Shown here piece by piece: positions 1 through 22,344 of a DNA stretch of 64,000 nt. Position 1 is the stretch's first letter. Each line of letters opens with the position of its first letter. The stretch comes from an uncultured SAR86 cluster bacterium (lineage in GTDB: Bacteria > Pseudomonadota > Gammaproteobacteria > Magnimaribacterales > D2472): contig CAJIYN010000002.1 of assembly GCA_905181645.1 (NCBI GenBank), positions 261,785 through 325,784 on the forward strand. The letters are read 5' to 3'. A program made the position numbers and the translations under genes. The notes beneath the pieces are model-generated. The model saw only the letters and a list, made by a program, of their open reading frames with translations. It was not told the origin of the DNA and did not search any database.

Positions 1-296
1 CAGTTAATTTTGTTGCAACTGATGCAGCTCATAACTCAGTTTCAATGGATGGCATGGTTCCCTCAGGAGCAACTAATTGGGCAAGCGAACTAAGTCAAGA
101 TATTAGTGTTACCTTCGATGTGGAAGGTCTTTATGCTTATCAATGCACTCCTCATTCTGTTATGGCAATGGTTGGGGTGATTCAAGTTGGAGAAAACCCA
201 ACTAATCTAAATGAAGTCTTGTCTCAAGCTGAAAGTATGAAAGCTATGTTTGTAATGAATAAAGAAAGATTAATTGACTACATTTCGCAACTATAG
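1..296 (+). CDS. pseudoazurin-type blue copper protein, 5' end outside window
   Basis: Frame is open from the window edge (VNFVATDAAHNSVSMDG...). C-terminus YAYQCTPHSVMAMVGVIQVG has the Cys-x2-His-x4-Met type-1 Cu loop of pseudoazurins; the upstream HN supplies the first His ligand. Confidence 0.8.
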   Translation, partial: VNFVATDAAHNSVSMDGMVPSGATNWASELSQDISVTFDVEGLYAYQCTPHSVMAMVGVIQVGENPTNLNEVLSQAESMKAMFVMNKERLIDYISQL

Positions 297-3058: not shown

Positions 3059-4311
3059 CTAGCTTCTAGATATATGCGAAGACTCTACCTCACCAGCCTC
3101 ATTGACTGTATATTTGCCTAATTCATGTCTTGCAACTGCTCTTCTGTGAACCTCATCAGGACCGTCTGCAAGCCTTAAGGTTCTCATATGAGCATACATT
3201 GATGCTAGTGGATAAACCTGCGAAACACCTGCGCCACCATGCATTTGAATAGCTCTATCTATAATATCGCAGCAAACATTTGGAGCTACGACCTTTAATC
3301 ATAGAAATTTCTTTGCGAGCAATTTTATTTCCAACCGTATCCATCATATAAGCAGCTCTTAAAGTTAATAGCTCTGCAGCATCTAGCTCAATTCTTGAAT
3401 TGGCAATAATATCCATATTTCCACCTAATCTTGCCAAAGGCTTGCCAAATGCAACCCTAGATAAACTTTGTTTACACATCATAGCTAGCGCTCTTTCACC
3501 TAAACCAACCGCTCTCATGCAATGATGGATTCTTCCTGGTCCTAATCTACCTTGAGCAATTTCAAAACCTCTGCCTTCACCAAGAATCATATTGCTCTTT
3601 TGGCACTCTTACATTAGTAAATTTCATATGAGCATGTCCGTGCGGAGCATCATCATATCCGAATACATGCATTGGGCGAATGACTTCAACACCCTCAGCA
3701 TCCATTGGAACAAGTATTTGAGACTGTCTTTGATGTCTATGATTATCTGGATTAGTAACACACATAAAAATGATAAATTTACATCTAGGATCGCCAGCAC
3801 CTGATGTCCACCACTTTTCTCCATTGATAACGTATTCATCACCATCTAAGACAGCTGAGGACGCTATATTAGTAGCATCTGATGATGCAACACCAGGTTC
3901 TGTCATTGCAAAACATGACCTTATTGAACCTTCTAGTAATGGTTTTAACCACTCTTCTTTTTGCTCTTCTGTGCCAAAATCATACAGAACTTCCATATTT
4001 CCAGTATCAGGTGCTGAGCAATTAAATACTTCTGATGAAATTCCATGAGCTCCCATAACTTCTGCTAAGTGAGCATATTCAAGATTGGTTAATCCAGCGC
4101 CATTTTCACTTTCTGGAAGAAACATATTCCATAATCCAGCAGCTCTAGCTTTAACTTTCATCTCTTCCATTATCGGCGGAACTACCCATGTGCCATCAGC
4201 ATCCTTAGATTGCTCATGGTATAAAGTTTCGTTATGTGCAACTTCCTTATTAATAAAATCTTGAACTCTATTTATAAGATCTTGTGCTTTTTGACTAATT
4301 TCATATTCCAT
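3059..4311 (-). CDS. acyl-CoA dehydrogenase (FadE2/ACAD10-like), split into 3 frames
   Basis: ORFs 3577-4311, 3255-3590 and 3059-3244 are consecutive parts of one roughly 417-aa ACAD ([24 protein letters not shown], ..HGGAGV..). Confidence 0.8.
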
Positions 4312-4334
4312 CTTTACTCTCCCTTCTAAACTGC

Positions 4335-4347
4335 TACCAATATGGTA
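4335..4347. promoter_or_regulatory. candidate LysR-type T-N11-A operator
   Basis: TACCA-ATA-TGGTA dyad (T-N11-A) in the divergent intergenic region between the LysR gene (4434) and the ACAD gene (4311). Confidence 0.4.
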
Positions 4348-4433
4348 ATATAAGTTTCGTGAATGTCTTGTTTATAGCTTATACAATGATAACTTCACAT
4401 CACTTTCAATACTAGTTAGGAATTAAAAAAACT

Positions 4434-5339
4434 ATGAAAATAAGCACTTTTGACCTTAACTTATTTGTAATATTAAATGCTATTTATACTCAAGGAAGTC
4501 TTACTAAGGCTGCAGATGTTGTGGGTATTACTCAGCCTGCTGTAAGTAATGCTTTATCAAGATTAAGAGCAAAATTTAATGATGATTTATTTTTAAGAAC
4601 TGGATCAGGAATGATCCCAACACAAAAAACTGAAAATATGATTGCAGATATTCAAAATGCTCTCATGCTTATGCAGCAAAGTGTTGATGAGCCTGATGAG
4701 TTTGACTCTTCAACAAGTATTAGAAATTTTAAAATATCTTTAGCTGATGTTTCTGAAGGAAGAATCCTACCCTACTTAATGGAAGAGATTGATAAAATTG
4801 CACCTAATATATCAGTGGGAAGCTTTCATTATGCAAGACGTGATCAGGTGCATGCTCTTGCTACCAACCAATTAGATTTTGTTGTAGATCCTGTTATACC
4901 AAGATCAAATGAAGTTAAGTCTCATAAAGTTTTTGAAGATCACTATGTTGTTGCGCACCGAAAGAATCATCCTCTAACTAAAATTGATAACATCACATTA
5001 GAAGACCTTCTCTCTCAAAGACATTTAAATATTTCACAAAGAAGAAAGGGTCCACATATTATTGATGTAGAGTTAGCGAAACTTGGTCTTGAAAGAGATA
5101 TTGCTCTTAGGGCTCAGCACTTCTTAATCGCTCCAGAGGTTGTTAGGAATACTGATATTGTTCTCTTCTGCACACATAGCTTTGCTATGAGGCATCAGCT
5201 TGAGTATGTTGATATACCTGCAGAACTTCCAACAATGGAATACTTTTTAATATGGCACGCAAGTGATGATATGGATGGTGCTCATATTTGGATGCGTAAT
5301 CTTTTAATTGAAGCTTACAAGAATGCTATAAAGATCTAA
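4434..5339 (+). CDS. LysR-family transcriptional regulator
   Basis: Intact 301 aa. N-terminal wHTH FDLNLFVILNAIYTQGSLTKAADVVGITQPAVSNALSRLR, followed by a LysR substrate-binding region. Confidence 0.9.
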   Translation: MKISTFDLNLFVILNAIYTQGSLTKAADVVGITQPAVSNALSRLRAKFNDDLFLRTGSGMIPTQKTENMIADIQNALMLMQQSVDEPDEFDSSTSIRNFKISLADVSEGRILPYLMEEIDKIAPNISVGSFHYARRDQVHALATNQLDFVVDPVIPRSNEVKSHKVFEDHYVVAHRKNHPLTKIDNITLEDLLSQRHLNISQRRKGPHIIDVELAKLGLERDIALRAQHFLIAPEVVRNTDIVLFCTHSFAMRHQLEYVDIPAELPTMEYFLIWHASDDMDGAHIWMRNLLIEAYKNAIKI

Positions 5340-6277: not shown

Positions 6278-7228
6278 ATGGATTTATTTACAAGTGCTGC
6301 GTGGCTCACCTTATCTCTGACTCTTCTGATATGGGGAGCTAATAAATTTATTGATAGTGCCTCCTCTATTGCAGGGAAATTGGGTATAAGTGATTTTATT
6401 ATCGGATTGAGTGTTATCGCCTTGGGAACTTCTTTTCCAGAAATATTTGTTGGAATATCATCTATTGTTAACAATAATGAAGAGCTTGCACTTGGTGCTA
6501 TTGTTGGATCCAATATTTCTAATGTTGCATTAATTTTTGGTGTTTCATGTATTGGTTATACTGCTGCAATAAATCCATCTTCGAATAAAAATTTTGTTGC
6601 TCTTGCGATGAAGTGTCATTATTGCTATTTATGCCCTTAGCGACCTAAATATTAGTCAGCTTGATTCTTTATTGCTTCTTTTAGTTCTTGTAGAATATGC
6701 ATTTCAGTCTTTAAATCTGAAACTATTTTTTTATAATTAAAATAAAGTGTAGATGATGCAACTTTTTTAAATCTTTTTACTTTTCTTGTTATTGGTCTGA
6801 TTGCTCTTGTAATTGGTTCAAATTATGCAGTTATTCATGGAGAAAAAATTGCCTTATTGATGGGAATACCGAAATTAATAGTGGGTCTTACGGTTCTAGC
6901 TATAGGAACAAGCTTGCCTGAGCTTGCTGTAACGATAAGCGCTCTAGTTAAGAAGAAGAATCAAATGGTGCTTGGAAATATAATTGGTTCAAATGTTTTA
7001 AATATTGCAGTTGTAATGCCTATTTTGGGTCTATTCTCAGATCAAACTTATGATGCCTCTATAATGACAAGAGACATGATTGTAATGTCTTTTACAACTC
7101 TGGTATTTATTCTTATAGCTTTAAGCTTTAACTATAAAAATATATCTACCAATGTGTATCGATTCATAGGAGTTGCTCTTGTAACTGGCTATGTTATTTA
7201 TATTGCAGTTCTAAGCGGACTTCTTTAG
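6278..7228 (+). CDS. Ca2+/Na+ antiporter (CaCA/YrbG family), frameshifted in the middle
   Basis: Both alpha-repeats are present (GLSVIALGTSFPE and GLTVLAIGTSLPE). Region 6600-6860 reads as membrane helices only after 2-3 frame changes. Confidence 0.8.
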
Positions 7229-7633
7229 CGGCTTAAAGAGCAATAAAGTAACTAAGCAAAAAGTAAAAGTTAAAATTTCAAATAGAAAAAAGGTATTAAC
7301 CAGAGGTGGTGTTGAGGGTATTGCAGCAAATATTATTCTTCCTGCAGCAATACTTCCTGTAAGAAACATTAAAAGTTGGAGAGAGATTTTCATATAATTT
7401 AATGAAAAAATACCAATAAAACATAAAATTCCAACACCAAGATTCAGACCGCCATATATACCAGCAAGTTCAGAGTAACCAATCATGCTTGAGATACTTA
7501 GACCAATATATTCAGTTATTGAAGGGTAATCTGCATCTACTGCAGCAAATAGTGGCGATAGTATTGCCCATACACCAATACCAAAATACATAAGTGTCAT
7601 TGATAAAAGAAATAATCTAATAATCCAAATCAT
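7211..7633 (-). CDS. DUF4345-like membrane protein
   Basis: 140 aa, 4 predicted TM helices, SELAGIYGGLNLGVG motif. Confidence 0.55.
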   Translation of the reverse strand: MIWIIRLFLLSMTLMYFGIGVWAILSPLFAAVDADYPSITEYIGLSISSMIGYSELAGIYGGLNLGVGILCFIGIFSLNYMKISLQLLMFLTGSIAAGRIIFAAIPSTPPLVNTFFLFEILTFTFCLVTLLLFKPLKKSA

Positions 7634-7696
7634 CGTAAGCTCCCTATTTTATATCTATTAAGCTATATTACATGCTTATGAATTATTCTAATATAA

Positions 7697-8188
7697 ATGT
7701 ATAAATATTTAACTTATTTATTAATACTGATTATAAGCATGAATGGATATACAGACTTTAAAAATCTAGGACCTGATGATGTCTTAACAACGCCTCTGCC
7801 CTTGCCTTATGATGAAAAGGTAGTTGATTCATTGCAACTAGATGAATTTATTGACCTGTCTATCAGCAAAGGTAAGCAGCCTGTTGTTATATTTGGTGGT
7901 AATTGGTGCCCTGATTGCAGAATTTTAGATGGGACTTTAAAAATGCCATCGATTGAAAGCTTTATGTCAGAGCACTTTGAGATTATGCATATTGATGTTG
8001 GAAGATATGATAAAAATATGGAACTTATGGATTATTTTGGAGTTGCTAGAGAAAAAGGAGTGCCTAGAGTTATTGTATTTGATAAAGAAATGAATATTCT
8101 AAATAGCTCATCTACAAAAGAGTGGACCACCGTAAGAGACAGAAAGATGCAAGATGTATTTGATTACTTTCAGGAACTAGTTAAATAA
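7697..8188 (+). CDS. thioredoxin-fold protein with signal peptide
   Basis: 163 aa, N-terminal hydrophobic leader, GGNWCPDC redox motif. Confidence 0.7.
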   Translation: MYKYLTYLLILIISMNGYTDFKNLGPDDVLTTPLPLPYDEKVVDSLQLDEFIDLSISKGKQPVVIFGGNWCPDCRILDGTLKMPSIESFMSEHFEIMHIDVGRYDKNMELMDYFGVAREKGVPRVIVFDKEMNILNSSSTKEWTTVRDRKMQDVFDYFQELVK

Positions 8189-8191
8189 GTT

Positions 8192-8961
8192 TTAATATTT
8201 AAAATGCTTGATTTCTTCTCCACTTTGACCAATATCTGTCATTGCCTTTAATACCTTTTCCAGATGAAGATCTACCCATTCCTGGGTAACTGCTTTATCT
8301 GATTCTTCTGTTTTGACTCCATCTAGAGTAAGAGGAACATCTGATACCAGCAATAAAGCACCTCTTGCTATTTCATTGTAATGACCAACAGAAAAATTAA
8401 TTGCTATTTATGTAGTTTTTAAAATAATAGTCTCTTTGCTTAAGAAATTTCTTATCATGCTCCCAGACTCTTCTATTAGTTGTGAAAATAACTCCTGTTC
8501 TGTAGTCACTTTGTTTTTCAATAATAATATCTGAAACAAATTTATGAAGTTTAAATGACGGAAGTGCTGGAACTTCAGGTGGAAAGTAATCATTTGATGT
8601 TCCATCACCTCTAATTGCTCCTATAGGAAGGATAAAGTTACCAATTTCTGAAGAGCCTTTTTTTAAACCTCCACATTTACCTAAAAATAAAACACCTTTT
8701 GGCTGAACTGCTACCAGTAAGGTCCATAATAGTTGCTGCATTTGGAGATCCCATTCCAAAGTTAATAATTGTTAATCCATCTGAATTAGTCGCAGCTTGC
8801 ATCGCGCGGCCTTCCCCATGAATTTCAACAGAAAATCGTTCAGAGAATTTCTCAACATAATTTTTAAAATTCGTTACGAGGATGTACTCGCCAAATTTTT
8901 CTAAAGGCATTCCTGTATATCTTGGAAGCCAGTTTTTTGCTATTTCTAATTTTGTTTCCAT
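8192..8961 (-). CDS. amn: AMP nucleosidase-like (short form, PNP/UDP family), frameshifted
   Basis: WLPRYTGMPLEKFGEYILVTNF, GVLFLGKCGGLK, AIRGDGTSNDYFPPEVPALP, TTNRRVWEHD and GALLLVSDVP are spread over three frames. Confidence 0.75.
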
Positions 8962-9046
8962 CCATCATTATAACTCCATACGACTTTCTTAAAAATTAAA
9001 GAATGAAGAAAAAAGTATTTATAAGAAATATTATTACTAAAAATCT

Positions 9047-10283
9047 TTAATCAAATTGCTTAGTTGTACTCGCGAAAGTTAAATAAAAGATACCGCCAAA
9101 TAATAAAATAGCAGATGAAAGATAAAATACACTATCAAAAGAGCCAGTAAAATCCACTAAAAACCCTGATAGAGCAACACCCACTATCCCAGGAATCGTT
9201 GCTATAGTTGCGCTGATCCCCATTATAGAGCCTGTATGCTTAGGACCTATATCAGCATGATTTACAGAGTAACCTCCAGTACCAAGACCTGCACAGATAT
9301 TAGTAATAGAGAGCATTATCATTACGCCAATAATAGAATCAGTAGATGGAAGAAGACCTAACGCAAGTGAAGACCCGCCAAACCCAATAACTGTACAGGT
9401 TCTTCTGACAGTTAAGATGCGGTGCCCTTTTTTAATAAAAAGATCTGACAAGTAGCCACCTAGGTTAACAAAGACAACAGATACAATTGATGGGACTAAT
9501 ATGAGTAAAATAAATGTAGCAGTATCCTCCTGATAACTAATTCCAAGCCCGTCTCTAATAAAAATAGGTAGCCAAGATATAAGAACAAATAAGGGCCAAT
9601 TTACACAAAAATGGGCAACAATAATTGCCCACAATGGTTTGTTTCTTATTAGTTTGTTAAAAGCAGGAAGTTTTGCATTTTTTTTATCATGTGCTCAGAT
9701 AAATGACACCTAACTCCAAGCTCTTTTTGAGAAATATCAGGATGATCGGTTGGAAGCGAAGTAATATTTCTATGCCAAAAAAAGAACCAAACTAGCCCAA
9801 GAGCTCCGAATGAATAAAAAGCCCACTCCCACCCAAACATAATCATAATGATCGGGGTCATAACATATGCAAAAATACTTCCAAGAGGTATGCCGCTATT
9901 AGTAAAAGCTATGGCTCTTGTTCTTTCTTGATATGGAACCCATCTAGCATAAAGGCTATGCCAAGCTGGAAAAGTAATACCTTCACCTAGTCCCATAAGG
10001 ACTCTGGTAGTTAATAATAAGAAGAAGCTATGATGAGCAGCAGCCGGAGTCAGAATTGTAAAAAGAGACCATAGTAAAACACCATATCCAAGAACTCTTT
10101 TGCCACCATACCTATCAGCCAAGAACCCACCCAAATATTGAGTAAATATATAACCTACAAAAAAAGAAGAAATTAGTATTTTAAGCAAAAAAAAACCCAG
10201 CAAATGGCTGGGTCTAATTTACAAATAGATAGATCCAGCTATATTGGCAGTACCCGTCTTTCTTGTATTTTAAAGTTATTCAT
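9047..10283 (-). CDS. MFS transporter (anion:cation symporter-like), frameshifted
   Basis: GGFLADRYGGKRV loop motif and 12 TM-like segments across ORFs 9649-10203 and 9047-9634. The likely true start, MNNFKIQERRVLPI, at 10283 is in a third frame. Confidence 0.75.
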
Positions 10284-10338: not shown

Positions 10339-10423
10339 TGGTAGGGATGGAGGGGATCGAACCCCCACGCCTTGCGGCACTAGGTTCTAAACCTAGCGTG
10401 TCTACCAGTTCCACCACATCCCC
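10339..10423 (-). tRNA. tRNA-Leu (anticodon UAG)
   Basis: 85-nt class II tRNA: acceptor GGGGATG/CATCCCT, 3-bp D stem GTG/CAC, anticodon loop TTTAGAA, 13-nt variable arm, T loop TTCGATC, encoded CCA. Confidence 0.9.
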
Positions 10424-10505: not shown

Positions 10506-13500
10506 TTAATTTTTTATTATCGTTAATTTAGATTTGGTATTTTTTGCCTCAGCTTCATTCTGTACTTTTAATTTAGAGAGCATAGAAGATGCACTTAGAC
10601 CTCCTCCGCTTGATCGAGTCTTAAGATATACACTCGTAGCCTCAACATCACTATCAATTAGAGTAAAGAATTCATATTGTGATGTAACCTCAGGATACTG
10701 CTCCCAAATCTCTCCTGTGCCTCTAATATAGCCATCGCTATCAATATTGGTAGAGAAAAGCCAATAATAACTTCCTATATCAATATCACTAACGTTAAAT
10801 GTTAAGCCACCAGCACCTAGTTGAACTCTCCAACCCCTATAATAATCACCATTTTCATCATAAAGATATGCTAGTACATATCCAATCTCCGGACTAGTTC
10901 TTTCTGCACCAGATGAATATGTGAAGGTAACATTCGATTTAGTACCGTCACTTAATTCAGCAATAATGCTTCCAGTATAAGTGCCATCAGGAACTTCTCC
11001 TCTTGTAAGAGTAACTTTATAAGTTCCATAACCATCGCTATCAACATCGATTGTTGAAATTGATGTTAATGAAGAATTTGATGAAACTAATTGAGTAACA
11101 GTAAGATCGCCAGTTCCCACTTTACTTACAGTTATTATCTTTTCAGTGTCTGTATAACCAAACACAAAAGAACCAGGAGTGATGGTTGCATATGTAAAAT
11201 CAAGCCCGCCATCAATTAGATTGGTAAAGGCTTTATCAAGGTTTATTAACCCATAACCGAACTCATCATCCTTGCCTTCTGTTCCTATGTCATCAGTAAA
11301 GAAACCAGATTTAATAAATGCTTCCATTTTAATAAAATCATTGACAATACTAACTGCCAATTTTCTACTCCAAATGGAAGTCTTACCATCATAATTACTG
11401 GAGATGTAAGAGGAATAATTGACAGCCAAAAAGCAAGAATTCCATCAGACTGACCATCACCATTTAAATCAGTACCTGTAGTTCCACCTGGAGCTGCTAC
11501 ATCTACCGCATCATTGTAAGTTGAATAATATGCTCTTTGTGAAAGAGGATTAACTGCTGCAACTGAAATAACATTATCGCATGATGCAGGATAACCCTTA
11601 ATTCCAGGAGATTCTTCAGCACTATTACCAGATGAAGCAACAACAGTTACACCACTATTAGTAACATCTAGAATTGCATTTCTATAAGCTGTGCTACAGC
11701 CACCACCTATACTTCCTAAGCTCATATTTACTACTTTTATAGGTACTGAGCCTCCATAAACTTGGCCAGTAATATTAGGAAGTCCAGCGGCAAATAACAT
11801 AGAGTTTGTAACATCTGACTGTGAAGCTCCTCCACTAGGACCAAAAACCCTAAATGGAACTGTATGAATTCCAAATCCGTTTATATTATTTCCATCATTT
11901 GCCGCAGAAATAGTTGTAGCTACATGGGTTCCATGAGAGTTACTTGCAACATCAACAGCATCAGTAGGATCAAAATCATTATCAATAAAATCAAACCCGC
12001 CATCTAGGAAATGAGAAGTTGTCCATGCAGAAGATGTTATCAGTGGAGAGCCAGAATCAATTACTGCAACAGCAACATCTTTAACCTCTTGACCTGATGC
12101 ATTTAGAACTTTCTCCAAGCCCATTAATTGAAGACCCCACTGATAATCCCAGTATGTATCTTTAGTAAAACCAAGTTTTTGGTAAATCTTATTAAACTCG
12201 AGATTTAATTTAGGATTAATATTTTTATAATGCTGTAGAATTTTCCATTGTTTTAAATATAAAACTTGTTCAGAATTATTGGCTATTAAATCTTTAGAAT
12301 CTAAATATGTTTCACTTCCAAATATAGTTGAATATTCATTCTCAAGATTGAATTCAATAACTCTCAATCCCATGAAATCTGAATTATCGATATAAGAAAG
12401 TTTTTGATTTAAATCTTCATTCTGATTAAATTCAGGATATATATCCTCATAGGTATCAAGTTTACCTGAGAAGGATCTGTAAGATATAAACTCTCCTTTA
12501 ACAAAGGCGTCTTTGGAAGGAGTAAAGCTTGTACTGGATGCAGAGCCACCTGGAGCTAGCAGTAAAGTATATTTACTAGCGCCTTGATCTTTAGCAACTA
12601 CTGCATAAAAAATACCTGTATCAGGAAGGTTAATTTTTTGGTATTGCTCTGATGAGCCTACTGTATATGAGAAATCAGTTAAAACTCCATTTGAGTTATA
12701 TAAAAGAAGTGTGGCTTTGTTAGTAACTGTTGAAACATTTCCATCAGCATCAGTAACCTCTTCTTGATAATCTTCAATTGCTAATTCAATTTGAAGTCCT
12801 GGAACTGTATTTAATTTATACCAATCTTCTGGATCAATTGTCTGAAGAGCTGTGATAACAGCATTCCCCTCTGCATCAAAAATAACATTACCATCTTCGT
12901 CTCTACTATAAACATCTATAAGCTTGTCTCCAATAAAACCAGTAACCTCACTAGGGGTTATTAATGCTTTAGCATCCTCAATTACGTCATTAGGTGTTTT
13001 TGTGTAACCCACTCCATTATTCATTGGTGTTGGCACATCCCCATCTAAGACTGTTGTATTAGAGGTAAGAATGGTTTGTGTTAACGAGAAGGTATCTTTT
13101 AAATCTGTAACCTGAACTGTAAGATTTTGTTCTCTTGTTAAGCTATTGGTGGTGTCTGTTACTGAAAAAGTAAGTTCGTAGTTATTATCAGCATCAGCAT
13201 CTGTTGGACCTTCATAATTGGCGCCTTCCAGAGCATTAAATCTTAAGAAGCCGTTAGAGCCAAGTAAAAATTCAGCTGCATCAACACCAGTCATGGTTAC
13301 ACTTCCAAAGTCATCACCCTCAGGATCGGCAACTTCTAAAGTTAGAACAGTATTATCATTTTCCTCTATTAAGAAAATAGCAGGAAGGCCTACAAACTCT
13401 GGTGCCTCTGAAACATCAGTAATAATTATGCTAACTGCTTGGGCAACTTCATTACTTCCATCAGAAATAACAACATTAATTTCATATGTATTATTTGTAT

Positions 13501-14092
13501 TAGCATCTGTTGGAACTTCATAATTAGATGTAGCTGCAAAAGCTAAAACTCCACCTGTTGATAGAGTAAAGTCATCCGCATCATCACCAGTAAGTGAGAA
13601 TGTTATTGCATTGCCATCGGGATCTGAAGCGCTAACAGTAACAACATCAATGGTATTTTCTTCTAGCGTATAAGAGGACTCTAAATCAGAGAATGTTGGA
13701 GGATCATTTGTTTCAAGAACAGTAACAGTTCCTGATTTTGTTGATGTATTAACTGAATCATCTGCTTTTACAGTAAATTCATATACGTTATCACCATCAG
13801 TATCAGTTGGTGATGCAAAGGAAGGGCTTGAATTAAATACTATGACTCCTTCTGAAGAAATAGATAACGCTGCAGCATCTGCACCAATAAGTGAAAGCGT
13901 TGGGGTGTCGCCATCAGCATCTGTAACTGTTACTGTTAAGACTGAAGTTTGTCCGTTAGAAACTTCTGTATTTGCAGCAAAGTCTGCAATAACAGGAGCA
14001 TTGTCAATAGGCGTATAAACATTAATAGGAATAGTTTATTTAAGGTTAAACCTATTATAAATAGGAATAATAATTTTGTGTTATTTTTATAA
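10506..14092 (-). CDS. giant secreted protein: cadherin-like repeats + PPC domain + subtilisin (S8) peptidase + C-terminal beta domains (frameshifted; start not resolved)
   Basis: Three to four cadherin-like repeats (..DADGDTPTLSL.., ..PTDTDGDNVYEF..). PPC-like DPEDWYKL...GIFYAVV...KYTLLL. S8 motifs VAVIDSGS (Asp) and SHGTHVATT (His); GYGLINLDKA at the domain end. The frame changes near 11290-11430. Confidence 0.8.
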
Positions 14093-17050
14093 TAACTCGG
14101 CTTCAGTTAATGCAAAGTCAGCTGCATCTGACTCCAGCTAGAGTTGTACTGAAAGTAGGTGTTGATCCATCTGCATCAGTAGCTGTAACTGTTCCAATAG
14201 CTGTTTGGTTTTCCGCAGCGCTAAATGAAGCAGATGAAGTAAATACTGGTGAATTATCATTTAAGTTATTAATACTTACTGTAATATTTTGTGTAGCTGA
14301 AGCTACACCATCACTCACAGTAATAGTTGCTGTATATGAAGATTTAGTTTCATAGTCAGGTGCTGATGCAAAGGTTAAGACGCCTGCATCTGTAATAAGC
14401 AGCTCTGATCCCGATACGCTAAAGCTTAACGAGCTATCATCAGCATCACTTGCTGTAACTGTAGCTATGGAAGTTTGATTTTCATCTGCGCTCAAGCTTG
14501 TAGAAGATGTGAATACTGGTGCATTGTCATTTAAGTTATTTACATTAACAGTTATAGCTTGTGTAGCCGACAGATCACCATCAGATGCAGTAACTGTTGC
14601 TGAATATGATGTTTTTGTTTCATAGTCAGGAGCTGTTATAAAAGACAAAGTTCCATCTGAGGTTAAGGCTAAATCTGATCCTGAAACACTAAATGTTATA
14701 GATGAGCTATCAACATCATCTGCTGTAACTGAACCAATAGTTGTTTGATTTTCATCTGCATCAAAACTCGCTAAAGAAGTAAAGGTTGGCATCTCATTAA
14801 CATCGGTAACATTTACAGTAATACTTTGAGTAGATGAATTAATTCCATCTGTTGCTGTGAGAGTTGCTGTGTATGAAGGAGTTGTTTCAAAATCAGGCGC
14901 TGTTACAAAAGTAATAACACCTCCTGAAGTTACGGCTAGATCTGTCCCTGAAATGCTGAATGTTATAGATGAGCTATCAACATCTGTTGCAGATCGCAGT
15001 TCCAATAGTTGTTTGATTTTCTGGTGCACTAAAGGTTGCAGAAGATGTAATCACAGGAGCGACATCATCCACATCTGTAATTGCTACTGATATAGCTTGA
15101 GTAATAGTGGTTGCTCCATCAGTTACTGTTACAGTGGCAGAATAGCTTGTTGTTGTTTCATAATCAGGTGCTGTTACAAAAGTTAGGATTCCTGATGAGG
15201 TTATAGCTAGCTCAGAACCAGTAATTGAGAATGTTAATGAAAGATTATCAGCATCAGAAGCTGTAACAGTGCCAATGGTTGTCTGATTTTCAGCAGCACT
15301 AAAACTGGCTAAAGAAGTAAATACTGGAGGGTTATCATTTAAGTTGTTGATACTTACTGTTAGATTCTGATCAGTTGTAGCAATTTCACCTGTAGCTGAA
15401 ACTATAACTGAGTAAGTAGATTTTGTTTCATAGTCAGTTGCTGAATTGAATACCAACACTCCAGAACTAGAATCAAGAGTCATTACACTAGCGTCAGTTC
15501 CTGAAAGCGCGTAGCTGACAACTGCATCGAACGGATCGACTGCTAATACTGTACCAATTTCAGTTTGATTCTCATCAGCATTTAGAGTTGCTGGTGTAGA
15601 GAAAACTGGGCCCTCAACATCAACATCAGAAATGTTTACCTGAATATCTTGATCAGTTGTATTTACTCCATCAGAAGCAGTAACTTTTGCTGAGAATGAA
15701 GCTAGAGTTTCAAAATCTGGTCTTTGGCTAAATGTTAAAGCTCCTGAGTTAGAGGCGCTTATTGTAGGAAAGCTGTTAGAACTTGAGCTTACATCGCTAC
15801 CCATTCCAGGATGAACGCTACAGTAATAATATAAAGCTGCAGGTGTATCTGCAGATACTGTGATAAGAGTAACTCCATCTGTTGAAGTATCAACACCGGC
15901 TGTATAAGCCTCACCACTAGCATGCGTTCCATCAGAAGTTGTTGAAAATCTAAATGGGTGAGCTGTTGGATGTTCGAGTCTATAAGTTTTACCAACTTCA
16001 AGGAAAAGTTGTTTCTTTTGGGCTCCACTAATTACATAAACATTGCCAGAGCCACTTGCATTAGCGGCTACAGATACTTCTATTTTTTGAGTAACAGAGT
16101 TATCTACAGAATAGGTAATTGTATCTCCATTATCAGCGTCAGTAGTTGTAACTGAACCAATATCTAATTGATTTTCGGGTATGCTAAATGTTGTTTCAGA
16201 TGTAAATACAGGAGCATTATCATTAACATCGATAACGCTTACAGTAATATCCTGAGAACCTGAATTTACTCCATCTGATGCAGTAACCGTTGCTGAATAT
16301 GAAGTTTTGGTTTCATAATCAGGAATATCTACAAATGATAAAACTCCATCAGATGTAATTGATAGCTCAGAACCAGAAATGCTATATGTCAGTGACTGGG
16401 TGTCAGCATCTGTCGCTACAACAGTACCAATTGAAGATTGATTTTCATTTGCGCTAAACGTTGATGAAGAAGTGAAATTAGTTGGGTTGTCATCTAAGTT
16501 CGTTATATCAATAGTTATATTTTCAGTTAACTGATTTAGACCATCGGATACCGTTACCGCAGTTGTATATGATGATTTTGTTTCATAATCTGGAGCAACT
16601 AAAAATGTTAATAATCCTCCATTTGAAATAGATACTTCAGAAAAACTGTGAAAGTTACACTATCCTCATCAGCATCAGAAGCAGTTACTGTTCCAATAGC
16701 AGTTTGGTTTTCAGCAGCACTAAAGGTAATAAAGCAATAACAGGATTATTATCATTAAGATTATTTAAGTTAACTATTACATCTTTACTTAATGTATCTA
16801 TTCCATCTGTAACAGAGACAGTTATGGCATATGAGCTTTGCTGCTCATAATCCGGTGATGATGCAAAACTTAAAACATTTTCAGAAGATAAATTGAAACT
16901 TGTAGCATCTGCTCCATTGATTGAAACCGTAAGAGGCTCACTTTCTGCATCACTTACATCAATACTGGTAACTGCTGTCTGATTTTCGTCAACTGTATAA
17001 TTTGTAAGTAAATTATTAAAAGTTGGGGCATCGTTCACAGAAGTAACAGT
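13100..17050 (-). repeat. tandem coding repeats of about 300 nt (cadherin-like, about 100 aa each), roughly 13 units across both giant genes
   Basis: Recurrent F(T/S)S..F.A.ENQT.IGTVTA.DAD...L(T/S)FS.SG..L....G.L.F...PDYE.K.SY...VT..DG.....Q.I.V.I.NLNDN.P(V)F. Units are diverged at the nucleotide level. Confidence 0.85.
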
Positions 17051-18465
17051 AATTAATATACTTGAAATAGAAGTTTGTCCTGCCTGGTTTAAAGTATATT
17101 TAATCTTCGATCGCTTAAAATTATCATTTGGTGAATAGGTTACAACATTATTTAGAATACTTATTGAGCCACTTGAAGCTGCACCTGCAGTTAAAGTAAC
17201 TGGCAAGGATGTCTGATAGGAATCATTTGCTAGAACATTTAATGTTACAGAAGTATCTTCAGCTGTAGTTGCTGAATCGGCTAATGATGCAACGAGATCA
17301 TTCACATCCACATTTTGATCAGTGGCAACATAATTAAGAATATCTGTTTGATAACTAACAAGAGTTGCATCCGAAGCTGTTCCATTGGCTATTGCTTGAG
17401 CATCTGTTTGTAGGGTACTGGTTGCAAAATCAAATATAGCAGTCGTATTCTCATTATTTGCTTTGACTTGAACTACAGGAAGCACAGCAGCTAGAGCACT
17501 TATAGTATTAGCTTTATTTGTGGCATCTAAGGTTAAAGATTTAGATTCAACAACATTATTTAGAACTTTAGTTATAAAAGCTTCCGTTTCAATATTAACT
17601 CTGGTTTCAGTAGCTGTATATTCTGTATCAAGCTCTTCGGCTATAGCTTTAAAATAATCCTGAGTAGTCTCAGTTGTGGTATTCAGATTATTCGTAATAT
17701 TTTGCAGTGCGTAAGCAAGAATTGTGAGCTGGTTACCTTTTTCATATAGATAATCATTGATGCCGCCATCACCCTTTCCTACAACCGGATCAACAACACT
17801 AATATCAAGACTTGAATCTATACCAAGAGCTGCATTAACTAGACTGGCATCAGTCATAAATGCTGCAACTGAGGTAACTGGAGTAACAGCTTTAAAATCT
17901 GAGTGACCAGTCAGTTTATGAACAATTAAAAGATTATCTAAAGCATTACCAGAATCAAGATCGGTTCCACCTAAACTAATCAGATTTCCATCTGAGTATT
18001 TAATGGTGAATTTACCATCATTATCTGAAGTTGTTGAATCTTCATCACCATCAGCAGTATAGGAATCATTGGTATCAATAAAAATATCAGCTTGACGAAT
18101 ATAACCATCAACAGAAACACCATCAGTATTTCTATAACCTTCAACGATAGCTGAAGCAGATGCAGAGCCGCCAGCACCAGTACAATTAATTCCAAAAGTA
18201 TTATCACCTGGAGTCGAGATAGTTACATCCTCAGTTCCACTAATAGCTTTAGTACCTGTCCAGGTTCCAGAAGCAGAACATGAAGTCGCATTAGTAGAAG
18301 ACCAAGTTAAGGTAATAACCGTATCAAGAATAACAGAAGAAGATGATGCGGAAAGGCTTGCAGTTGGACTTGGTTCTGGTGCTGGACGCCACCGCCACCC
18401 CCGCCACCGCCACATGAAGCTATAAATACTAAAGTTACTTCATCTATTAAATTATTTTTAAACAT
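14087..18465 (-). CDS. giant surface lipoprotein with Ig-like N-terminal domain, about 10 cadherin-like repeats and an embedded cupredoxin-like module (about 5 frameshifts)
   Basis: GGAG 8 nt upstream of ATG 18465. MFKNNLIDEVTLVFIASCGGGGGGGG is a lipobox plus poly-Gly linker. The frame slips in the G-run and continues PAPEPSPTASLSASSSSVILDTVITLTWSSTNATSC..., then into the repeats. Breaks lie near 16735, 16645, 15000 and 14100. Confidence 0.8.
15799..16044 (-). other. cupredoxin-like (type-1 copper) module embedded in the giant lipoprotein
   Basis: My own codon-by-codon translation: NVYVISGAQKKQLFLEVGKTYRLEHPTAHPFRFSTTSDGTHASGEAYTAGVDTSTDGVTLITVSADTPAALYYYCSVHPGMG. His(HPF), then 46 aa, then Cys-x2-His-x2-Met. 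Confidence 0.6.
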
Positions 18466-19982: not shown

Positions 19983-21101
19983 ATGAATTTAGATTTTTCA
20001 AATGACCAAAAAGTTCTTCATGATGAGGCTCGAAAGTTGTCTAATGGACCAAGAGGGTTCATCTTAAAAGAAATAGATCGGTACTGGATGATAAAAATAG
20101 TCTAGATAAAGAGTTGTGGGAAGATTATGCTGATGGGATGGACTGGCATCAGAATTCCAGAAGAGTATGAAGGATTAGGTTTGGGACATTTAGAGCTTTG
20201 CGTGGTTGCTGAGGAGCTTGGTAGATCTCTAGCTCCAGTGCCCTTCTCGTCATCTGTATACCTCTTTACCGAGGCAATCATTAAATATGCAAGTGAAGAA
20301 ATCAAACAAGAGATATTACCCAAGCTTGTTTCAGGGGAATGTGTTGGAACCCTTGCGGTGACTGAAGATTTACTTGCTCCTACTGAAAATAATATAAGCG
20401 TTACATCTTTAAATGAAGAGATTAATGGTAAAAAGATTGCTGTTCCAGATGCTGGAATTGCAACTCATGCAATCGTTGTTTGCAGAGGTGATAGCGGGAT
20501 TGAGTTAAGGCTTGTTGATCTCAATCAATCAAGTTGTAATATTGATAACCAAGAAAATATTGACGAAAGTAGAGGTCATTTCTCTATTGATTTTACAAAT
20601 ACCAAGAGTCAAATAGTTGGTGAAGCCGGAAATGGTTGGGAATTATTACAAAGTATTTTAAATCAAGCTGCAGTTTTATTTAGTTTTGAACAAATTGGTG
20701 GCTCTCAAGCCTCATTAGATATGGCAACAAGTTATGCAAAAGAGAGATTTGCATTTGGACGAGCAATTGGATCATACCAAGCTATTAAACATAAGCTTGC
20801 AGATATGTATATATCAATAACTCTTGCAAAATCTAACTCTTTTTATGGAGCATGGGCACTCTTAACAGATTCATCAGAATTAGATGATGCAAAAATGGGA
20901 TGAAATTTTAGATGCATTTAATTATGCTGCCCAAGAAAATATTCAAACACATGGTGGTAATGGTTATACTTGGGAGTATGACTGTCACCTTTTTTAAGTT
21001 TAGATTTATTAATATCCTCTTTAAATATAGGATCATTATCTACATGGAAAGAAAAGCTAGTCAGCGGTTTAGAGAAATCAAACTTAGTTAATTCAAATTA
21101 A
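19983..21101 (+). CDS. acyl-CoA dehydrogenase family protein (several frameshifts)
   Basis: MNLDFSNDQKVLHDEARKL.. start; GIRIPEEYEGLGLG; ERFAFGRAIGSYQAIKHKLADM; ..THGGNGYTWEYDCHLF.. in shifted frames up to the stop at 21099-21101. Confidence 0.75.
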
Positions 21102-21112
21102 AGGGGTATTCA

Positions 21113-22344
21113 ATGGATTTTAATGATTCGAAAGAGCAAGCAGAATTTAGGGCTGAATGTAGAAGTTGGTTAGAGCAAAATGCTGAACTTAAAACCGCAG
21201 CGCCTAAAGATAAAAGAGAGGGTATGGTAGGCGAGGAAGCTTTTTTAGACTCTGCTAAAGAATGGCAAAGAAAAAAGTTTGATGCTGGCTGGGCAATGCT
21301 TCATTGGCCAAAAGAATATGGCGGAATAGCAGCTTCTGCTATTGAAAGAATTATATGGGGACAAGAAGAATCAAAATTTAGTGTGCCTAGAGGTATTTAC
21401 GAAATTGGTCTTGGAATGGCTGGTCCTGTAATGATGCAATATGCATCAGAAGAACAAAAAGCTAGATATTTACCACCTATGGCAGAAGGTAAAGAAATTT
21501 GGTGCCAATTATTTTCAGAACCATCGGCTGGCTCAGATGTAGCTGGACTTAGAAGTAAAGCAGTTCAGGATGGGGATAAGTGGATAGTTAATGGTCAAAA
21601 AGTTTGGACATCTGGAGCTCAATTTTGTGACTATGGAATTTTAGTTGTTAGGCATGATGCCAATTTAGATAAACACAAGGGTTTAACTTTCTTTTTTGTA
21701 GACATGAAGTCACCGGGAATAACTGTGAAGCCGATTAAGCAGATTACCGGTCAATCTGGCAGTGGCTCTGGTTTTAATGATGTTCGTATTCCTGATACTC
21801 AAAGATTAGGTAATGAGGGTGATGGTTGGAAAGTTTCTTTAACAACGTTAATGAATGAAAGACTTGCAGTGGGAGATCCTGCAGGACTAGATTTTGATGA
21901 AATATTTGAAATAACTAGAGACTTAGAAGTCATGGAGAACCTTTGATTCAAAGTAGAGCTGTAAGAGAATCTATTGCGGACTGGTATTGTCAGGCTAATG
22001 GGCTAAAGAATACCAAGTTAAGAACAATGTCAGCACTCTCAAAAGGAGATACCCCTGGACCAGAGGCATCTATTACTAAGGTGGTTAGTGCTAATAAACT
22101 CCAAGCAATTGGTAATTTCGGAATTGATTCCCTTGATATGGCAGGAATGCTAAAAACAGATGACTCTGATGTTCATGGTTTTCAAGGAGCGTGGCTAGGA
22201 TCACCAGGATTGCGAATAGCTGGGGGCACTGATGAGATTTTAAGAAATATTATTGCTGAGAGAGTTTTAGGTTTGCCACAGGATCCAAGAGCGGATAAGG
22301 GCGTGGCATATAAAGATATACCATCAGGCACTAGTAAAGATTAA
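21113..22344 (+). CDS. acyl-CoA dehydrogenase family protein (one frameshift near 21943)
   Basis: AAAGGGG RBS-like purine run (Shine-Dalgarno). WPKEYGG, FSEPSAGSDVAGL, GQKVWTSGA, C-terminal GGTDEILRNIIAERVLGLP. Confidence 0.8.

What the first reader, a model, noticed from the sequence alone, without database searches (positions are those of the whole stretch)
15799..16044. Cupredoxin-like (type-1 copper) module spliced into a giant cadherin-repeat lipoprotein
The frame stays open inside the repeat array, but about 82 codons do not look like repeat sequence. They read NVYVISGAQKKQLFLEVGKTYRLEHPTAHPFRFSTTSDGTHASGEAYTAGVDTSTDGVTLITVSADTPAALYYYCSVHPGMG. The order and spacing are those of a blue-copper site: His (in HPF), 46 residues, then Cys-x2-His-x2-Met-Gly. 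The loop is as short as amicyanin's (CTPHPFM). Upstream, G-K-T-Y-x-L-E-H resembles the cupredoxin beta-strand that precedes the first His ligand. A redox copper centre displayed on an outer-surface lipoprotein about 1460 aa long, between adhesin-type repeats, is not an arrangement I can place in a described family. The window also starts with a soluble pseudoazurin gene and carries a full ccm operon, so periplasmic and extracellular electron carriers are clearly in use in this organism.
Basis: partly seen in the sequence, partly recalled or inferred. Interest (0 to 1): 0.65.

Follow-up and report, generated by a model that had tools for sequence, protein, structure and literature searches.

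The report
Blue-copper-type domain in SAR86 surface protease
A small domain with the fold and the four metal-binding residues of blue copper proteins sits inside one repeat of a giant surface-anchored protease of the marine bacterium SAR86. The same unnamed domain occurs in thousands of marine proteins, including the tail fibres of abundant ocean phages, where a copper site was not expected.

Summary
The quoted 82 residues are real: minus strand, 16044-15799. They form the core of a ~105-residue domain.

- **Fold:** AlphaFold2 models it confidently. The best solved-structure matches are almost all cupredoxins (pseudoazurin, amicyanin, plastocyanin).
- **Metal site:** His, Cys-x2-His-x2-Met align with the type-1 copper ligands. 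They are kept in 66 of 74 copies from 61 genomes and 4 phages, and in 198 of 243 copies among the best 150 family representatives. No copper was measured, and the ligand geometry in the model could not be inspected.
- **Databases:** Pfam, NCBIfam and PDB sequence searches give nothing for this copy.
- **Gene:** In this window the gene is broken in at least six places, as are most long genes here. Close SAR86 relatives carry one intact 2,668-aa ORF: lipoprotein signal, 14 cadherin-like repeats, a subtilase domain.
- **Position:** the module lies inside the fourth repeat, not between repeats.
- **Family:** large and unnamed, with 3,420 representative proteins at E ≤ 1e-10. It is marine and shared with cyanophage and pelagiphage tail-fibre and baseplate proteins.

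Presence on phage tails argues against a respiratory electron carrier. A copper-stabilised surface recognition module is my preferred reading. An extracellular redox role remains possible.

The parts
10506..18465 (-). Whole gene: an interrupted copy of a 2,668-aa lipoprotein-anchored, cadherin-repeat subtilase of SAR86
   Evidence: The reading frame runs in at least six pieces. The DNA is 94% identical over 8.4 kb to L007, where the gene is one ORF of 2,668 aa. The protein's 90%-identity cluster has 62 members; most of the 15 listed are exactly 2,668 aa, and JGI names them 'subtilisin family serine protease'.
18412..18465 (-). Lipoprotein signal peptide ending in the lipobox I-A-S-C, followed by a poly-Gly and Pro-rich linker
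   Evidence: Window: MFKNNLIDEVTLVFIASCGGGGGGGG. L007: MFKNNLIAIVVSLVFIASCGGGGGGGSPTPPEPSPT. That this is a lipobox is read from the sequence and was not tested.
13091..17029 (-). Array of cadherin-like repeats of about 90-104 aa each (14 in the intact orthologues)
   Evidence: Pfam Cadherin, Big_9 and Cadherin_4 hits. Repeat alignment A2. An HMM built from the repeats finds 14 units in L006 and L007.
16105..16215 (-). N-terminal half (37 aa) of the host cadherin-like repeat, ending in ...ITYSV
   Evidence: It aligns to the first 37-38 columns of nine other repeats. pLDDT is 90-96 in the model of the whole unit.
15766..16104 (-). Inserted segment of 113 aa.
   Evidence: It appears as a single gap block in all other repeats. 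AlphaFold2: mean pLDDT 84.9, core about 95, eight strands. Foldseek against the PDB: the top hits are cupredoxins. Foldseek against BFVD: E 2.8e-11, TM about 0.7 to phage tail proteins.
15613..15765 (-). C-terminal half (51 aa) of the host repeat, starting TISASNSGALTF
   Evidence: It aligns to the second half of the other repeats. Mean pLDDT per 10-residue block is 80-96 over residues 151-200 of the unit. The best PDB matches of the whole unit are protocadherins and cadherins.
15958..15960 (-). His ligand 1 (the His of HPF; His843 in L007 numbering)
   Evidence: Invariant in 68 of 68 homologues. hhalign places it on the His ligand of amicyanin, plastocyanin and pseudoazurin.
15802..15822 (-). 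Ligand loop C-S-V-H-P-G-M: Cys 15822-15820, His 15813-15811, Met 15804-15802
   Evidence: Cys 61/64, His 62/63, Met 58/60 in A1. The HCHM set is kept in 66 of 74 genome and phage copies and in 198 of 243 copies in the best representatives. This is the only Cys in roughly 2,170 residues (Cys96 to Cys2269) of the intact protein.
15922..15933 (-). D-G-T-H, part of the family signature F-S-T-T-x-D-G-T-H. It has no counterpart in classical cupredoxins and its role is unknown
   Evidence: His72 is present in 67 of 67 sequences in A1 and in 182 of 206 aligned copies among the representatives. It is absent from the T4-like cyanophage baseplate copies, which still keep the copper ligands.
11250..12082 (-). 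Peptidase_S8 (subtilase) domain. Its 3' part is frame-broken in the window, so the end coordinate is approximate
   Evidence: Pfam PF00082: E 2.1e-21 in the window piece and E 1.1e-34 over the full profile in L007, aa 2141-2421. The sequence motifs AVIDSG, HGTHVA and GTSMAAP are present in L007.
3..293 (+). Partial pseudoazurin gene (context only; not part of the giant protein)

Best explanation
Window 16104-15766 (minus strand) encodes a ~105-residue cupredoxin-fold domain. It carries a complete type-1 ('blue') copper ligand set: His, then Cys-x2-His-x2-Met. The loop is as short as the shortest described one, that of amicyanin.

The domain is a nested insertion. It interrupts the fourth cadherin-like repeat of a 2,668-aa protein, between the '...TYSV' strand and the '...ISASNSG' strand. 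The two halves of the repeat are still predicted to fold together.

The host protein has a lipoprotein signal, an N-terminal Ig-like region, a Big_9 domain, 14 cadherin-like repeats, a subtilase (S8) domain and C-terminal beta domains. It belongs to SAR86 bacteria. The copy in this window is broken by frame errors, but relatives carry it intact.

The module belongs to a large, unnamed, marine family. Members occur in SAR86, SAR92/Porticoccaceae, Woeseiaceae, Flavobacteriia, Planctomycetes, Verrucomicrobia, Marinimicrobia and archaeal MAGs labelled Methanobacteriota. They also occur in the tail-fibre and baseplate proteins of cyanophages and pelagiphages.

Inferred mechanism: the domain binds one copper ion through the four residues. 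It is held away from the cell on the repeat stalk. There it acts as a metal-stabilised extracellular recognition or adhesion module, the same job it would do at the receptor-binding end of phage fibres. I do not think it is a link in the respiratory electron chain.

Shown: fold, ligand conservation, nesting, distribution. Inferred: copper occupancy, surface exposure, function.
For: **Fold**
- AlphaFold2 mean pLDDT 84.9, core about 95.
- Of the top 50 Foldseek matches in the PDB, nearly all are cupredoxins. The best is pseudoazurin carrying the amicyanin loop: E 3.8e-4, probability 1.0.

**Ligands**
- hhalign of the family profile against classical cupredoxins: probability 86.5%, E 4.5e-6. His/Cys/His/Met fall on the canonical ligands.
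- Conservation: 68/68, 61/64, 62/63 and 58/60 in A1.
- HCHM is kept in 66 of 74 copies from 61 genome and 4 phage loci, and in 198 of 243 copies in the best 150 representatives.
- The exceptions fit a functional site. The axial Met is replaced by Gln, Leu, Phe, Val or Glu. Copies that lost Cys have usually also lost one or both of the His and Met of the ligand loop.
- Cys889 is the only Cys across the repeat region of the 2,668-aa protein.
- One relative passes the Pfam Copper-bind gathering score, 22.1 against 21.2. 28 of 68 homologues hit that family at E <= 1.

**Constraint**
- The module is 65% identical between SAR86 relatives whose remaining sequence is 36-41% identical.

**Nesting**
- Alignment A2.
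- HMM coordinates in L006-L008.
- Both repeat halves are modelled with block-mean pLDDT 80-96, and the best matches of the unit are cadherins.

**Intact gene**
-.

**Phage link**
- BFVD matches: E 2.8e-11, TM about 0.7, rmsd 2.1-2.5 Å.
- 195 phage records.
- PHROG tail families at E 6e-13 to 7e-15.
- The phage copies keep the ligands.
Against: - No copper was measured.
- The model's coordinates are not returned, so I could not check that the four residues converge in space.
- Pfam, NCBIfam and PDB sequence searches give no hit for the window copy.
- Foldseek TM scores to solved cupredoxins are modest, 0.44-0.49.
- The Asn that follows the first His ligand in the classical cupredoxins compared here is a Pro in this family.
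- The recognition or adhesion role rests only on where the domain is found.
- The strict conservation of a redox-type site, and the axial-ligand variation like that which tunes potential in known blue copper proteins (my own knowledge), would fit a redox role at least as well.
- Surface exposure of the lipoprotein is assumed, not shown.
Confidence: 0.6

Rival explanations
1. The module is a working one-electron redox centre outside the cell. A surface-displayed blue copper site oxidises or reduces an extracellular substrate, such as Fe(II)/Fe(III), Cu(I)/Cu(II), superoxide or an organic substrate. It would do this for metal acquisition or in support of the protease, as proposed for the cupredoxin domain of EfeO.
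For: - The complete type-1 ligand set is strictly conserved.
- Axial variants Gln, Leu, Phe and Val occur. From my own knowledge, these are the residues that tune potential in stellacyanin and laccases.
- In Porticoccaceae UBA1117 the module is fused to an imelysin/M75 domain, between DUF4856 and a TonB-dependent receptor. That is an EfeO-like layout in an uptake locus.
- The organism makes pseudoazurin and c-type cytochromes.
Against: - The same domain sits on phage tail fibres and baseplates, which have no electron donor or acceptor.
- No other redox cofactor domain was found in the 2,668-aa protein.
- The gene neighbourhoods in SAR86 and SAR92 show no redox partners.
- A single copper centre about 800 residues from the membrane anchor has no evident wire to the cell.
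Confidence: 0.25
2. The module is a metal-free, or other-metal, beta-sandwich spacer. The cupredoxin fold is used only as a rigid extracellular building block, as Ig-like domains are, and the four residues are relics or bind Zn or another ion structurally.
For: - The domain is found as one unit among many beta-sandwich repeats, in tandem arrays of up to nine copies.
- Some copies in tandem arrays have lost the ligands and are still retained.
- From my own knowledge, cupredoxin folds without copper are known.
Against: - About 90% of complete copies keep all four residues across bacteria, archaea and phages down to about 30-40% identity.
- A lone Cys conserved in an oxidising extracellular setting is hard to explain without a metal.
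- The module is much more conserved than its flanks.
Confidence: 0.1
3. The gene is a decaying pseudogene, so the module has no function in this organism.
For: There are at least six frame breaks, and stops in all frames at 14121-14040.
Against: - Most long genes of the window are broken in the same way: MFS, acyl-CoA dehydrogenase, CcmF, SMC, LigA.
- The breaks lie in short patches of 40-60% identity, within sequence otherwise up to 100% identical to L007.
- The protein's 90%-identity cluster has 62 members from many independent assemblies, and most of those listed are intact at exactly 2,668 aa.
- The module region itself is intact and 90-100% identical to the orthologues.
Confidence: 0.05

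Closest known systems
Small blue copper proteins of Pfam PF00127 (amicyanin, pseudoazurin, plastocyanin)
   Same: - Eight-strand Greek-key sandwich.
- Ligand order His ... Cys-Xn-His-Xn-Met near the C-terminus.
- The loop length C-x2-H-x2-M equals that of amicyanin.
- A Tyr precedes the Cys.
- A 'G-x-T-[YV]-x-[FW]' strand precedes the first His.
   Different: - It is not a free periplasmic carrier but a domain inside large extracellular proteins.
- Pro replaces the Asn that follows His1 in the classical cupredoxins compared.
- It has an extra, near-invariant F-S-T-T-x-D-G-T-H ... E-Y-T-x-G-V signature.
- The Pfam model does not detect the window copy.
- Structural similarity to solved cupredoxins is modest, TM 0.44-0.49.
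Tail-fibre and baseplate proteins of marine phages: PHROG 677 'baseplate wedge tail fiber protein connector', PHROG 30742 and 693 'tail fiber protein', PHROG 27200, PHROG 6005. Examples: S-SSM4 YP_007677250.1, S-TIM5 AEZ65678.1, Pelagibacter phage HTVC028P gp32
   Same: - The same domain by sequence (E 6e-13 to 7e-15) and by structure (E 2.8e-11, TM about 0.7, rmsd 2.1-2.5 Å, 30-42% identity).
- The ligands are retained.
   Different: - There the domain lies at or near the C-terminal end of a virion fibre or baseplate protein. Here it lies inside a repeat of a cellular protease.
- The public records do not annotate the domain as copper-binding.
- T4-like baseplate copies lack the DGTH motif.
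EfeO (cupredoxin 'Cup' domain plus M75/imelysin domain) of the EfeUOB iron uptake system
   Same: One relative, L012 of Porticoccaceae, has this module N-terminal to an imelysin domain, next to a TonB-dependent receptor. It is an extracytoplasmic cupredoxin tied to metal uptake.
   Different: The window protein has no M75 domain and no uptake genes beside it. No sequence relationship to the EfeO Cup domain was tested.
Laz, the lipid-modified azurin of Neisseria (from my own knowledge)
   Same: A cupredoxin tethered to the outer membrane by an N-terminal lipid anchor and a flexible linker.
   Different: Laz is a small single-domain azurin. Here the cupredoxin is one inserted domain about 800 residues into a 2,668-aa repeat protein with a protease domain.

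Membership tests
Cupredoxin, type-1 copper (Pfam PF00127 Copper-bind and its clan) | Greek-key beta-sandwich of 7-8 strands | tested here: met
   AlphaFold2 gives eight strands and a core pLDDT of about 95. The top Foldseek hits in the PDB are pseudoazurin, nitrite reductase cupredoxin domain, plastocyanin, amicyanin and rusticyanin: probability 1.0, E from 3.8e-4, TM 0.44-0.49.
Cupredoxin, type-1 copper (Pfam PF00127 Copper-bind and its clan) | Ligands His (strand 4) plus Cys-Xn-His-Xn-Met in the C-terminal loop, in register with known proteins | tested here: met
   hhalign: probability 86.5%, E 4.5e-6. All four residues fall on the ligands of amicyanin, plastocyanin and pseudoazurin.
Cupredoxin, type-1 copper (Pfam PF00127 Copper-bind and its clan) | Ligands conserved across homologues | tested here: met
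   HCHM in 66 of 74 copies and in 198 of 243 copies.
Cupredoxin, type-1 copper (Pfam PF00127 Copper-bind and its clan) | Score above the curated threshold of the family HMM | tested here: not met
   The window copy has no Pfam or NCBIfam cupredoxin hit at E <= 10. 28 of 68 homologues hit PF00127 at E <= 1, best 2e-4. One relative, L030, passes at 22.1 against 21.2 bits.
Cupredoxin, type-1 copper (Pfam PF00127 Copper-bind and its clan) | The four ligand side chains converge on one site in three dimensions | not testable with these tools
Cupredoxin, type-1 copper (Pfam PF00127 Copper-bind and its clan) | Binds Cu with the ~600 nm charge-transfer band and a small parallel hyperfine splitting | not testable with these tools
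   This needs an experiment.
Marine phage tail-fibre and baseplate domain (PHROG 677, 30742, 27200, 6005, 708) | Significant sequence match to the family profile over the domain | tested here: met
   E 7.4e-15, 5.9e-13, 8e-11, 5.2e-08 and 3.2e-05. tblastn finds 195 phage records.
Marine phage tail-fibre and baseplate domain (PHROG 677, 30742, 27200, 6005, 708) | Same fold as the predicted viral structures | tested here: met
   BFVD: 59 matches at E <= 1e-3. The best has E 2.8e-11, TM 0.69-0.75, rmsd 2.1-2.5 Å.
Cadherin-like repeat (PF00028, PF17803, PF17963) as the host of the insertion | Both flanks together make up one repeat unit | tested here: met
   Alignment A2. The repeat HMM gives split hits on either side of the module in L006-L008. 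The flanks are modelled with block-mean pLDDT 80-96. The best PDB matches are cadherins, with weak E values from 2.6e-3.
Bacterial lipoprotein | Signal peptide with a lipobox [LVI][ASTVI][GAS]C | tested here: met
   The sequence reads ...VFIASC followed by a Gly-rich linker, in the window and in L007. No signal-peptide predictor was available. Lipidation and surface exposure were not tested.
EfeO (Cup plus M75) | An M75/imelysin domain in the same protein | tested here: not met
   There is no Peptidase_M75 hit in the 2,668-aa protein. It is present only in the relative L012.

The most novel reading that the evidence does not exclude
The family is a copper-loaded module that marine bacteria, archaea and their phages use in common as an extracellular recognition domain. 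On this reading the virions of abundant ocean phages (T4-like cyanophages, pelagiphages) carry blue-copper sites on their tail fibres and baseplates. Copper is then part of how they, and giant surface proteins such as this SAR86 protease, dock onto targets. It would be a copper counterpart of the iron-in-tail-fibre 'Ferrojan horse' idea, and a previously uncounted pool of biologically bound copper in seawater.
Probability: 0.15. Interest if true: 0.85.

Novelty: new variant of a known kind. Interest (0 to 1): 0.62.

Why it matters
Blue copper sites are textbook electron carriers of respiration and photosynthesis. Here the same site, with ligands intact, is a building block of extracellular giant proteins in some of the most abundant marine bacteria. 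It is also found in the receptor-binding apparatus of cyanophages and pelagiphages. The family is large: 7,770 representative clusters at E <= 1e-3 and 3,420 at E <= 1e-10. It has no Pfam or NCBIfam model, and I found no paper describing it.

If the sites are loaded with copper:
- virions and cell surfaces become a copper pool relevant to trace-metal biogeochemistry;
- copper availability could affect phage adsorption and SAR86 surface biology;
- the shortest-loop blue copper site gains thousands of natural variants, including axial Gln, Leu, Phe and Val.

The nested insertion inside a cadherin-like repeat is also a clean natural example of domain grafting. Cultured material exists for testing: cyanophages S-SSM4 and S-TIM5, pelagiphage HTVC028P, and the SAR92 isolate H921.

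Tried and rejected
- **Sequence searches with the window copy alone.** Pfam, NCBIfam and PDB gave no cupredoxin hit. A family profile against PDB sequences gave only pseudoazurin at E 1.6.
- **Ligand geometry.** It could not be inspected, because coordinates are not returned.
- **One alignment holding both the repeats and the module homologues.** I wanted this for a better model of the nested unit. MAFFT always pushed the repeats onto the module columns. The nested unit was therefore modelled with the repeat paralogues only. The host halves came out confident and the insert poor.
- **Gene neighbourhoods.** In the window, L009 (SAR86) and L025 (SAR92) they gave no functional link. Only L012 did.
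- **Pseudogene reading.** Rejected, because frame breaks are window-wide and relatives are intact.
- **Recent phage insertion or contamination.** Considered and rejected. SAR86 copies are 55-68% identical to each other but only 30-47% identical to phage copies. The module also sits in frame inside a cellular repeat.
- **Literature.** Searches for cupredoxin or plastocyanin together with tail fibre, cyanophage, pelagiphage, cadherin or SAR86 found no description of the domain.
- **Not followed.** The weak Pfam hit to PF25489 (At5g54830-like domain).
Full report
**1. The observation**

The finding lies on the minus strand. Translating 16044 to 15799 gives exactly the 82 residues quoted. The spacing is as stated.
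- His of H-P-F: codon 15960-15958.
- Cys, 46 positions later: 15822-15820.
- His: 15813-15811.
- Met: 15804-15802, followed by Gly.

It is more than chance.
- In the six-frame translation of the whole window, the relaxed pattern H-x35-55-C-x2-H-x2-4-M occurs only here and in the partial pseudoazurin at the window start.
- Only 1 of 20,000 shuffles of the surrounding 560-residue piece produces it.

**2.

The open frame that holds the module is 560 codons long (16659-14980). The coding sequence as a whole runs in at least six pieces in different frames, from the start codon at 18465 to the stop at 10506.

A scan of one genome per species found 61 loci that encode the module. Two of them are orthologues of the window gene:
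- L007, a SAR86B MAG: module 95% identical, DNA 94% identical over 8.4 kb.
- L006: module 96% identical.

In both, the gene is one intact ORF of 2,668 aa. Its 90%-identity cluster has 62 members from many independent assemblies. Most of the 15 listed are exactly 2,668 aa, and JGI names them 'subtilisin family serine protease'.

Against L007, the window is 100% identical over long runs. It has 16 indel events and five short patches of 40-60% identity, and the frame breaks fall in those patches. Most other long genes of the window are split in the same way: MFS transporter, acyl-CoA dehydrogenase, CcmF, SMC, LigA. The breaks are therefore most simply errors of this assembly, not decay of this gene. 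Only the reads could settle that. The module region itself is intact and 90-100% identical to the orthologues.

**3. Architecture of the protein (L007 numbering)**

| Region | Feature |
|---|---|
| 1-19 | Signal peptide ending in the lipobox I-A-S-C, then a Gly- and Pro-rich linker |
| following | Small Ig-like region with a Cys pair |
| about 110-390 | Region with no family match |
| 397-478 | Big_9 domain |
| about 490-1810 | 14 cadherin-like repeats |
| 2141-2421 | Peptidase_S8 domain, with the motifs AVIDSG, HGTHVA and GTSMAAP |
| C-terminus | Beta-rich region |

There are only six cysteines in 2,668 residues: 19 (lipobox), 64, 96, 889, 2269 and 2308. Cys889 is the module's Cys. It is the only Cys between positions 96 and 2269.

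**4. The module is nested inside a repeat**

I aligned the window's repeats with each other (A2). The segment 16104-15766 (113 aa) appears as a single insertion in the repeat at 16215-15613.
- The 37 residues before it, ending ...ITYSV, align to the first part of nine other repeats.
- The 51 residues after it, starting TISASNSGALTF, align to the second part of those repeats.

An HMM of the repeat gives split hits on either side of the module in L006, L007 and the more distant SAR86 locus L008. I modelled the whole 201-residue unit with the paralogous repeats as the alignment. Both halves of the host repeat came out with block-mean pLDDT 80-96. The insert had no alignment in that run and is poor. 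The best PDB matches of that model are protocadherins and cadherins, with weak E values.

Other relatives carry the module in the linker between two repeats instead (P0011, P0025/L001). The module has therefore been grafted into repeat arrays more than once.

**5. What the module is**

Searched alone, the window copy matches nothing in Pfam, NCBIfam or PDB sequences. A homologue search returned 67 proteins. Most are short marine-metagenome sequences, several of which JGI names 'plastocyanin'.

With these as the alignment, AlphaFold2 gives a confident eight-strand sandwich: mean pLDDT 84.9, core about 95. Foldseek against the PDB puts cupredoxins in almost every one of the top 50 places. These include pseudoazurin with the amicyanin loop, pseudoazurins, the cupredoxin domain of nitrite reductase, plastocyanins, amicyanin and rusticyanin. 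E values start at 3.8e-4, probability is 1.0, and TM scores are a modest 0.44-0.49.

A profile-profile comparison of the family with five classical cupredoxins gives probability 86.5% and E 4.5e-6. The comparison aligns the His of HPF with the first His ligand, and Cys, His and Met with the loop ligands.

Among homologues, 28 of 68 hit Pfam Copper-bind at E <= 1. One relative, a 276-aa Woeseiaceae protein, passes the curated threshold at 22.1 against 21.2 bits.

**6. Conservation of the site**

- In the first alignment the four residues are present in 68/68, 61/64, 62/63 and 58/60 sequences.
- In 74 copies taken from the 61 genome loci and four phage loci, 66 have H-C-H-M.
- In 243 copies within the best 150 family representatives, 198 have it, and most of the rest are truncated.

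The exceptions are informative.
- The axial position is sometimes Gln, Leu, Phe, Val or Glu. Several of these are the residues found at the axial position of other blue copper proteins (my own knowledge).
- Copies that lost Cys, typically extra copies in tandem arrays, have usually also lost one or both of the His and Met of the ligand loop.
- Between the window protein and the SAR86 relative L008, the module is 65% identical while the rest is 36-41% identical.

The family also has a signature absent from classical cupredoxins: H-P-[FL]-x-F-S-T-T-x-[DN]-G-T-H ... E-Y-T-x-G-V, with Pro in place of the usual Asn after the first His. The second His is present in 67/67 and 182/206 copies. It is missing from T4-like baseplate copies, which still keep the copper ligands. 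Its role is unknown, and I could not locate it in the model.

**7. Where the family occurs**

A profile search of 1.84 billion representative proteins finds 7,770 at E <= 1e-3, 3,420 at E <= 1e-10 and 210 at E <= 1e-30, with up to nine copies in one protein.

The genome loci come from SAR86 (most), Porticoccaceae/SAR92, Woeseiaceae, Flavobacteriia, Planctomycetes, Verrucomicrobia, Marinimicrobia, Marinamargulisbacteria and archaeal MAGs labelled Methanobacteriota.

The structural matches to predicted viral proteins are far better than those to solved cupredoxins: E 2.8e-11, TM about 0.7, rmsd 2.1-2.5 Å, 30-42% identity. They fall on tail-fibre, baseplate-wedge and virion structural proteins of cyanophages. 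Other phage evidence:
- tblastn finds the module in 195 phage records: 137 Synechococcus, 32 'Cyanophage', 18 Prochlorococcus and 4 Pelagibacter phages.
- The module matches PHROG tail families at E 6e-13 to 7e-15.
- The 'Pelagibacteraceae' genome loci turn out to be T7-type tail fibres, that is, phage DNA in single-cell assemblies.

Other architectures seen:
- C-terminal to a PEBP-type domain, in the cultured SAR92 strain H921.
- C-terminal to collagen repeats, in one of those archaeal MAGs.
- Inside 3,000-5,000-aa proteins of Bacteroidetes.
- N-terminal to an imelysin/M75 domain, between DUF4856 and a TonB-dependent receptor, in a Porticoccaceae MAG. This layout recalls EfeO.

**8. How it most likely works**

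Shown:
- a cupredoxin-fold domain with a conserved type-1 ligand set;
- nesting in a cadherin-like repeat of a lipoprotein-type subtilase;
- membership of a large marine family shared with phage tail proteins.

Inferred:
- It binds one copper ion.
- The protein is exported and anchored by its lipid, with the repeats holding the module and the protease away from the cell.
- The module serves as a metal-stabilised recognition or adhesion unit.

I prefer the recognition reading to a respiratory or electron-shuttle role for three reasons. The same domain sits at or near the distal end of phage fibres, where no redox partner exists. The host protein has no other cofactor domain. The gene neighbourhoods show no partners.

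An extracellular redox role remains a serious rival, for example in metal acquisition. It is favoured by the strict retention of a redox-type site, the axial variants, and the imelysin fusion next to a TonB-dependent receptor.

**9. Comparison with what is known**

It works like, and by fold and ligands belongs with, the small blue copper proteins. It fails the curated Pfam threshold and forms a distinct branch with its own signature. By sequence, its nearest described relatives are phage tail-protein families in PHROGs, whose records do not mention copper.

I found no paper that links cupredoxin or plastocyanin-like domains to phage tail fibres, or to cadherin-repeat proteins of SAR86. The library searched is open-access only, so this is not proof of absence. 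Some automated pipelines already label short members 'plastocyanin'.

**10. Verdict**

The description of the gene needs correcting. The implied tie to the cell's electron carriers is not supported.

The feature is a new variant of a known kind: a known fold and site, in an undescribed and very large extracellular and phage-borne family, in a nested arrangement. Copper binding itself remains untested.

Noticed in passing
window-wide, e.g. 10203-9047, 20127-21946, 38734-37582, 35582-32847, 31615-29839, 2056-1649: Most long genes of the window are split into two or more frames: MFS transporter, acyl-CoA dehydrogenase, CcmF, SMC, NAD-dependent ligase, an sbcB fragment. In the giant gene the breaks lie in five short patches of 40-60% identity to L007, within otherwise near-identical sequence. 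This points to assembly or consensus errors rather than gene decay.
   Followed up: partly
window 3-293 (+): Partial pseudoazurin gene running off the window start (…AHNS…CTPHSVMAM…). E 6e-18 to solved pseudoazurins.
   Followed up: yes
window 310-388 (-) and 10339-10423 (-): tRNA-Val (GAC) lies just after the pseudoazurin gene. tRNA-Leu (TAG) lies 83 bases downstream of the stop of the giant gene.
   Followed up: no
L012 5256-7145, with neighbours 3294-4874 and 7102-9309: In Porticoccaceae UBA1117 the module is fused N-terminally to an imelysin/M75 domain. The gene sits between a DUF4856 protein and a TonB-dependent receptor. The layout is EfeO-like and lies in an uptake locus.
   Followed up: partly
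L033 8315-10423 and L036 8696-10447 (tested); L037, L044, L046, L050 (not tested): In L033 and L036, labelled Pelagibacter/Pelagibacteraceae, the module sits in a protein with a T7 tail-fibre N-terminal domain. This looks like pelagiphage DNA within single-cell or MAG assemblies. Four further Pelagibacteraceae loci have module ORFs of similar length but were not scanned.
   Followed up: partly
L055 1890-8054; L052 9806-20278; P0068: Tandem arrays of the module exist, up to nine copies in the 958-aa protein P0068. In arrays, extra copies have lost Cys and usually also the His and/or Met of the ligand loop, while one copy stays intact.
   Followed up: partly
L040 2-1015 and L054 9089-14239: Natural axial-ligand variants of the site: Gln in place of Met in L040 and Leu in L054. 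Phe, Val and Glu variants occur among the best representatives.
   Followed up: partly
L001 / L020 (GCA_038146925.1, 1.39-Mb contig labelled Alphaproteobacteria): A related giant gene in this long-read, pilon-polished MAG is also fragmented, with a frameshift inside the copper loop (…YYYCSIHSRYYCN…). Here the module sits between two repeats, not inside one.
   Followed up: partly
alignment A1 members (e.g. P0049, P0066): 15 of 68 homologues hit Pfam PF25489 (At5g54830-like domain, from a plant cytochrome b561/DOMON protein) at E <= 1, best 3.3e-4. This may indicate a distant relationship.
   Followed up: no
L053 1699-2961 (MAG labelled Methanobacteriota archaeon): A protein with collagen triple-helix repeats, DUF7151 and a C-terminal module. 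It looks like a fibre protein in an archaeal MAG.
   Followed up: no
window 14121-14040 (-): An AT-rich stretch with stops in all three frames replaces the second half of a cadherin-like repeat that is intact in L006 and L007. Identity to L007 here is only about 40%.
   Followed up: partly
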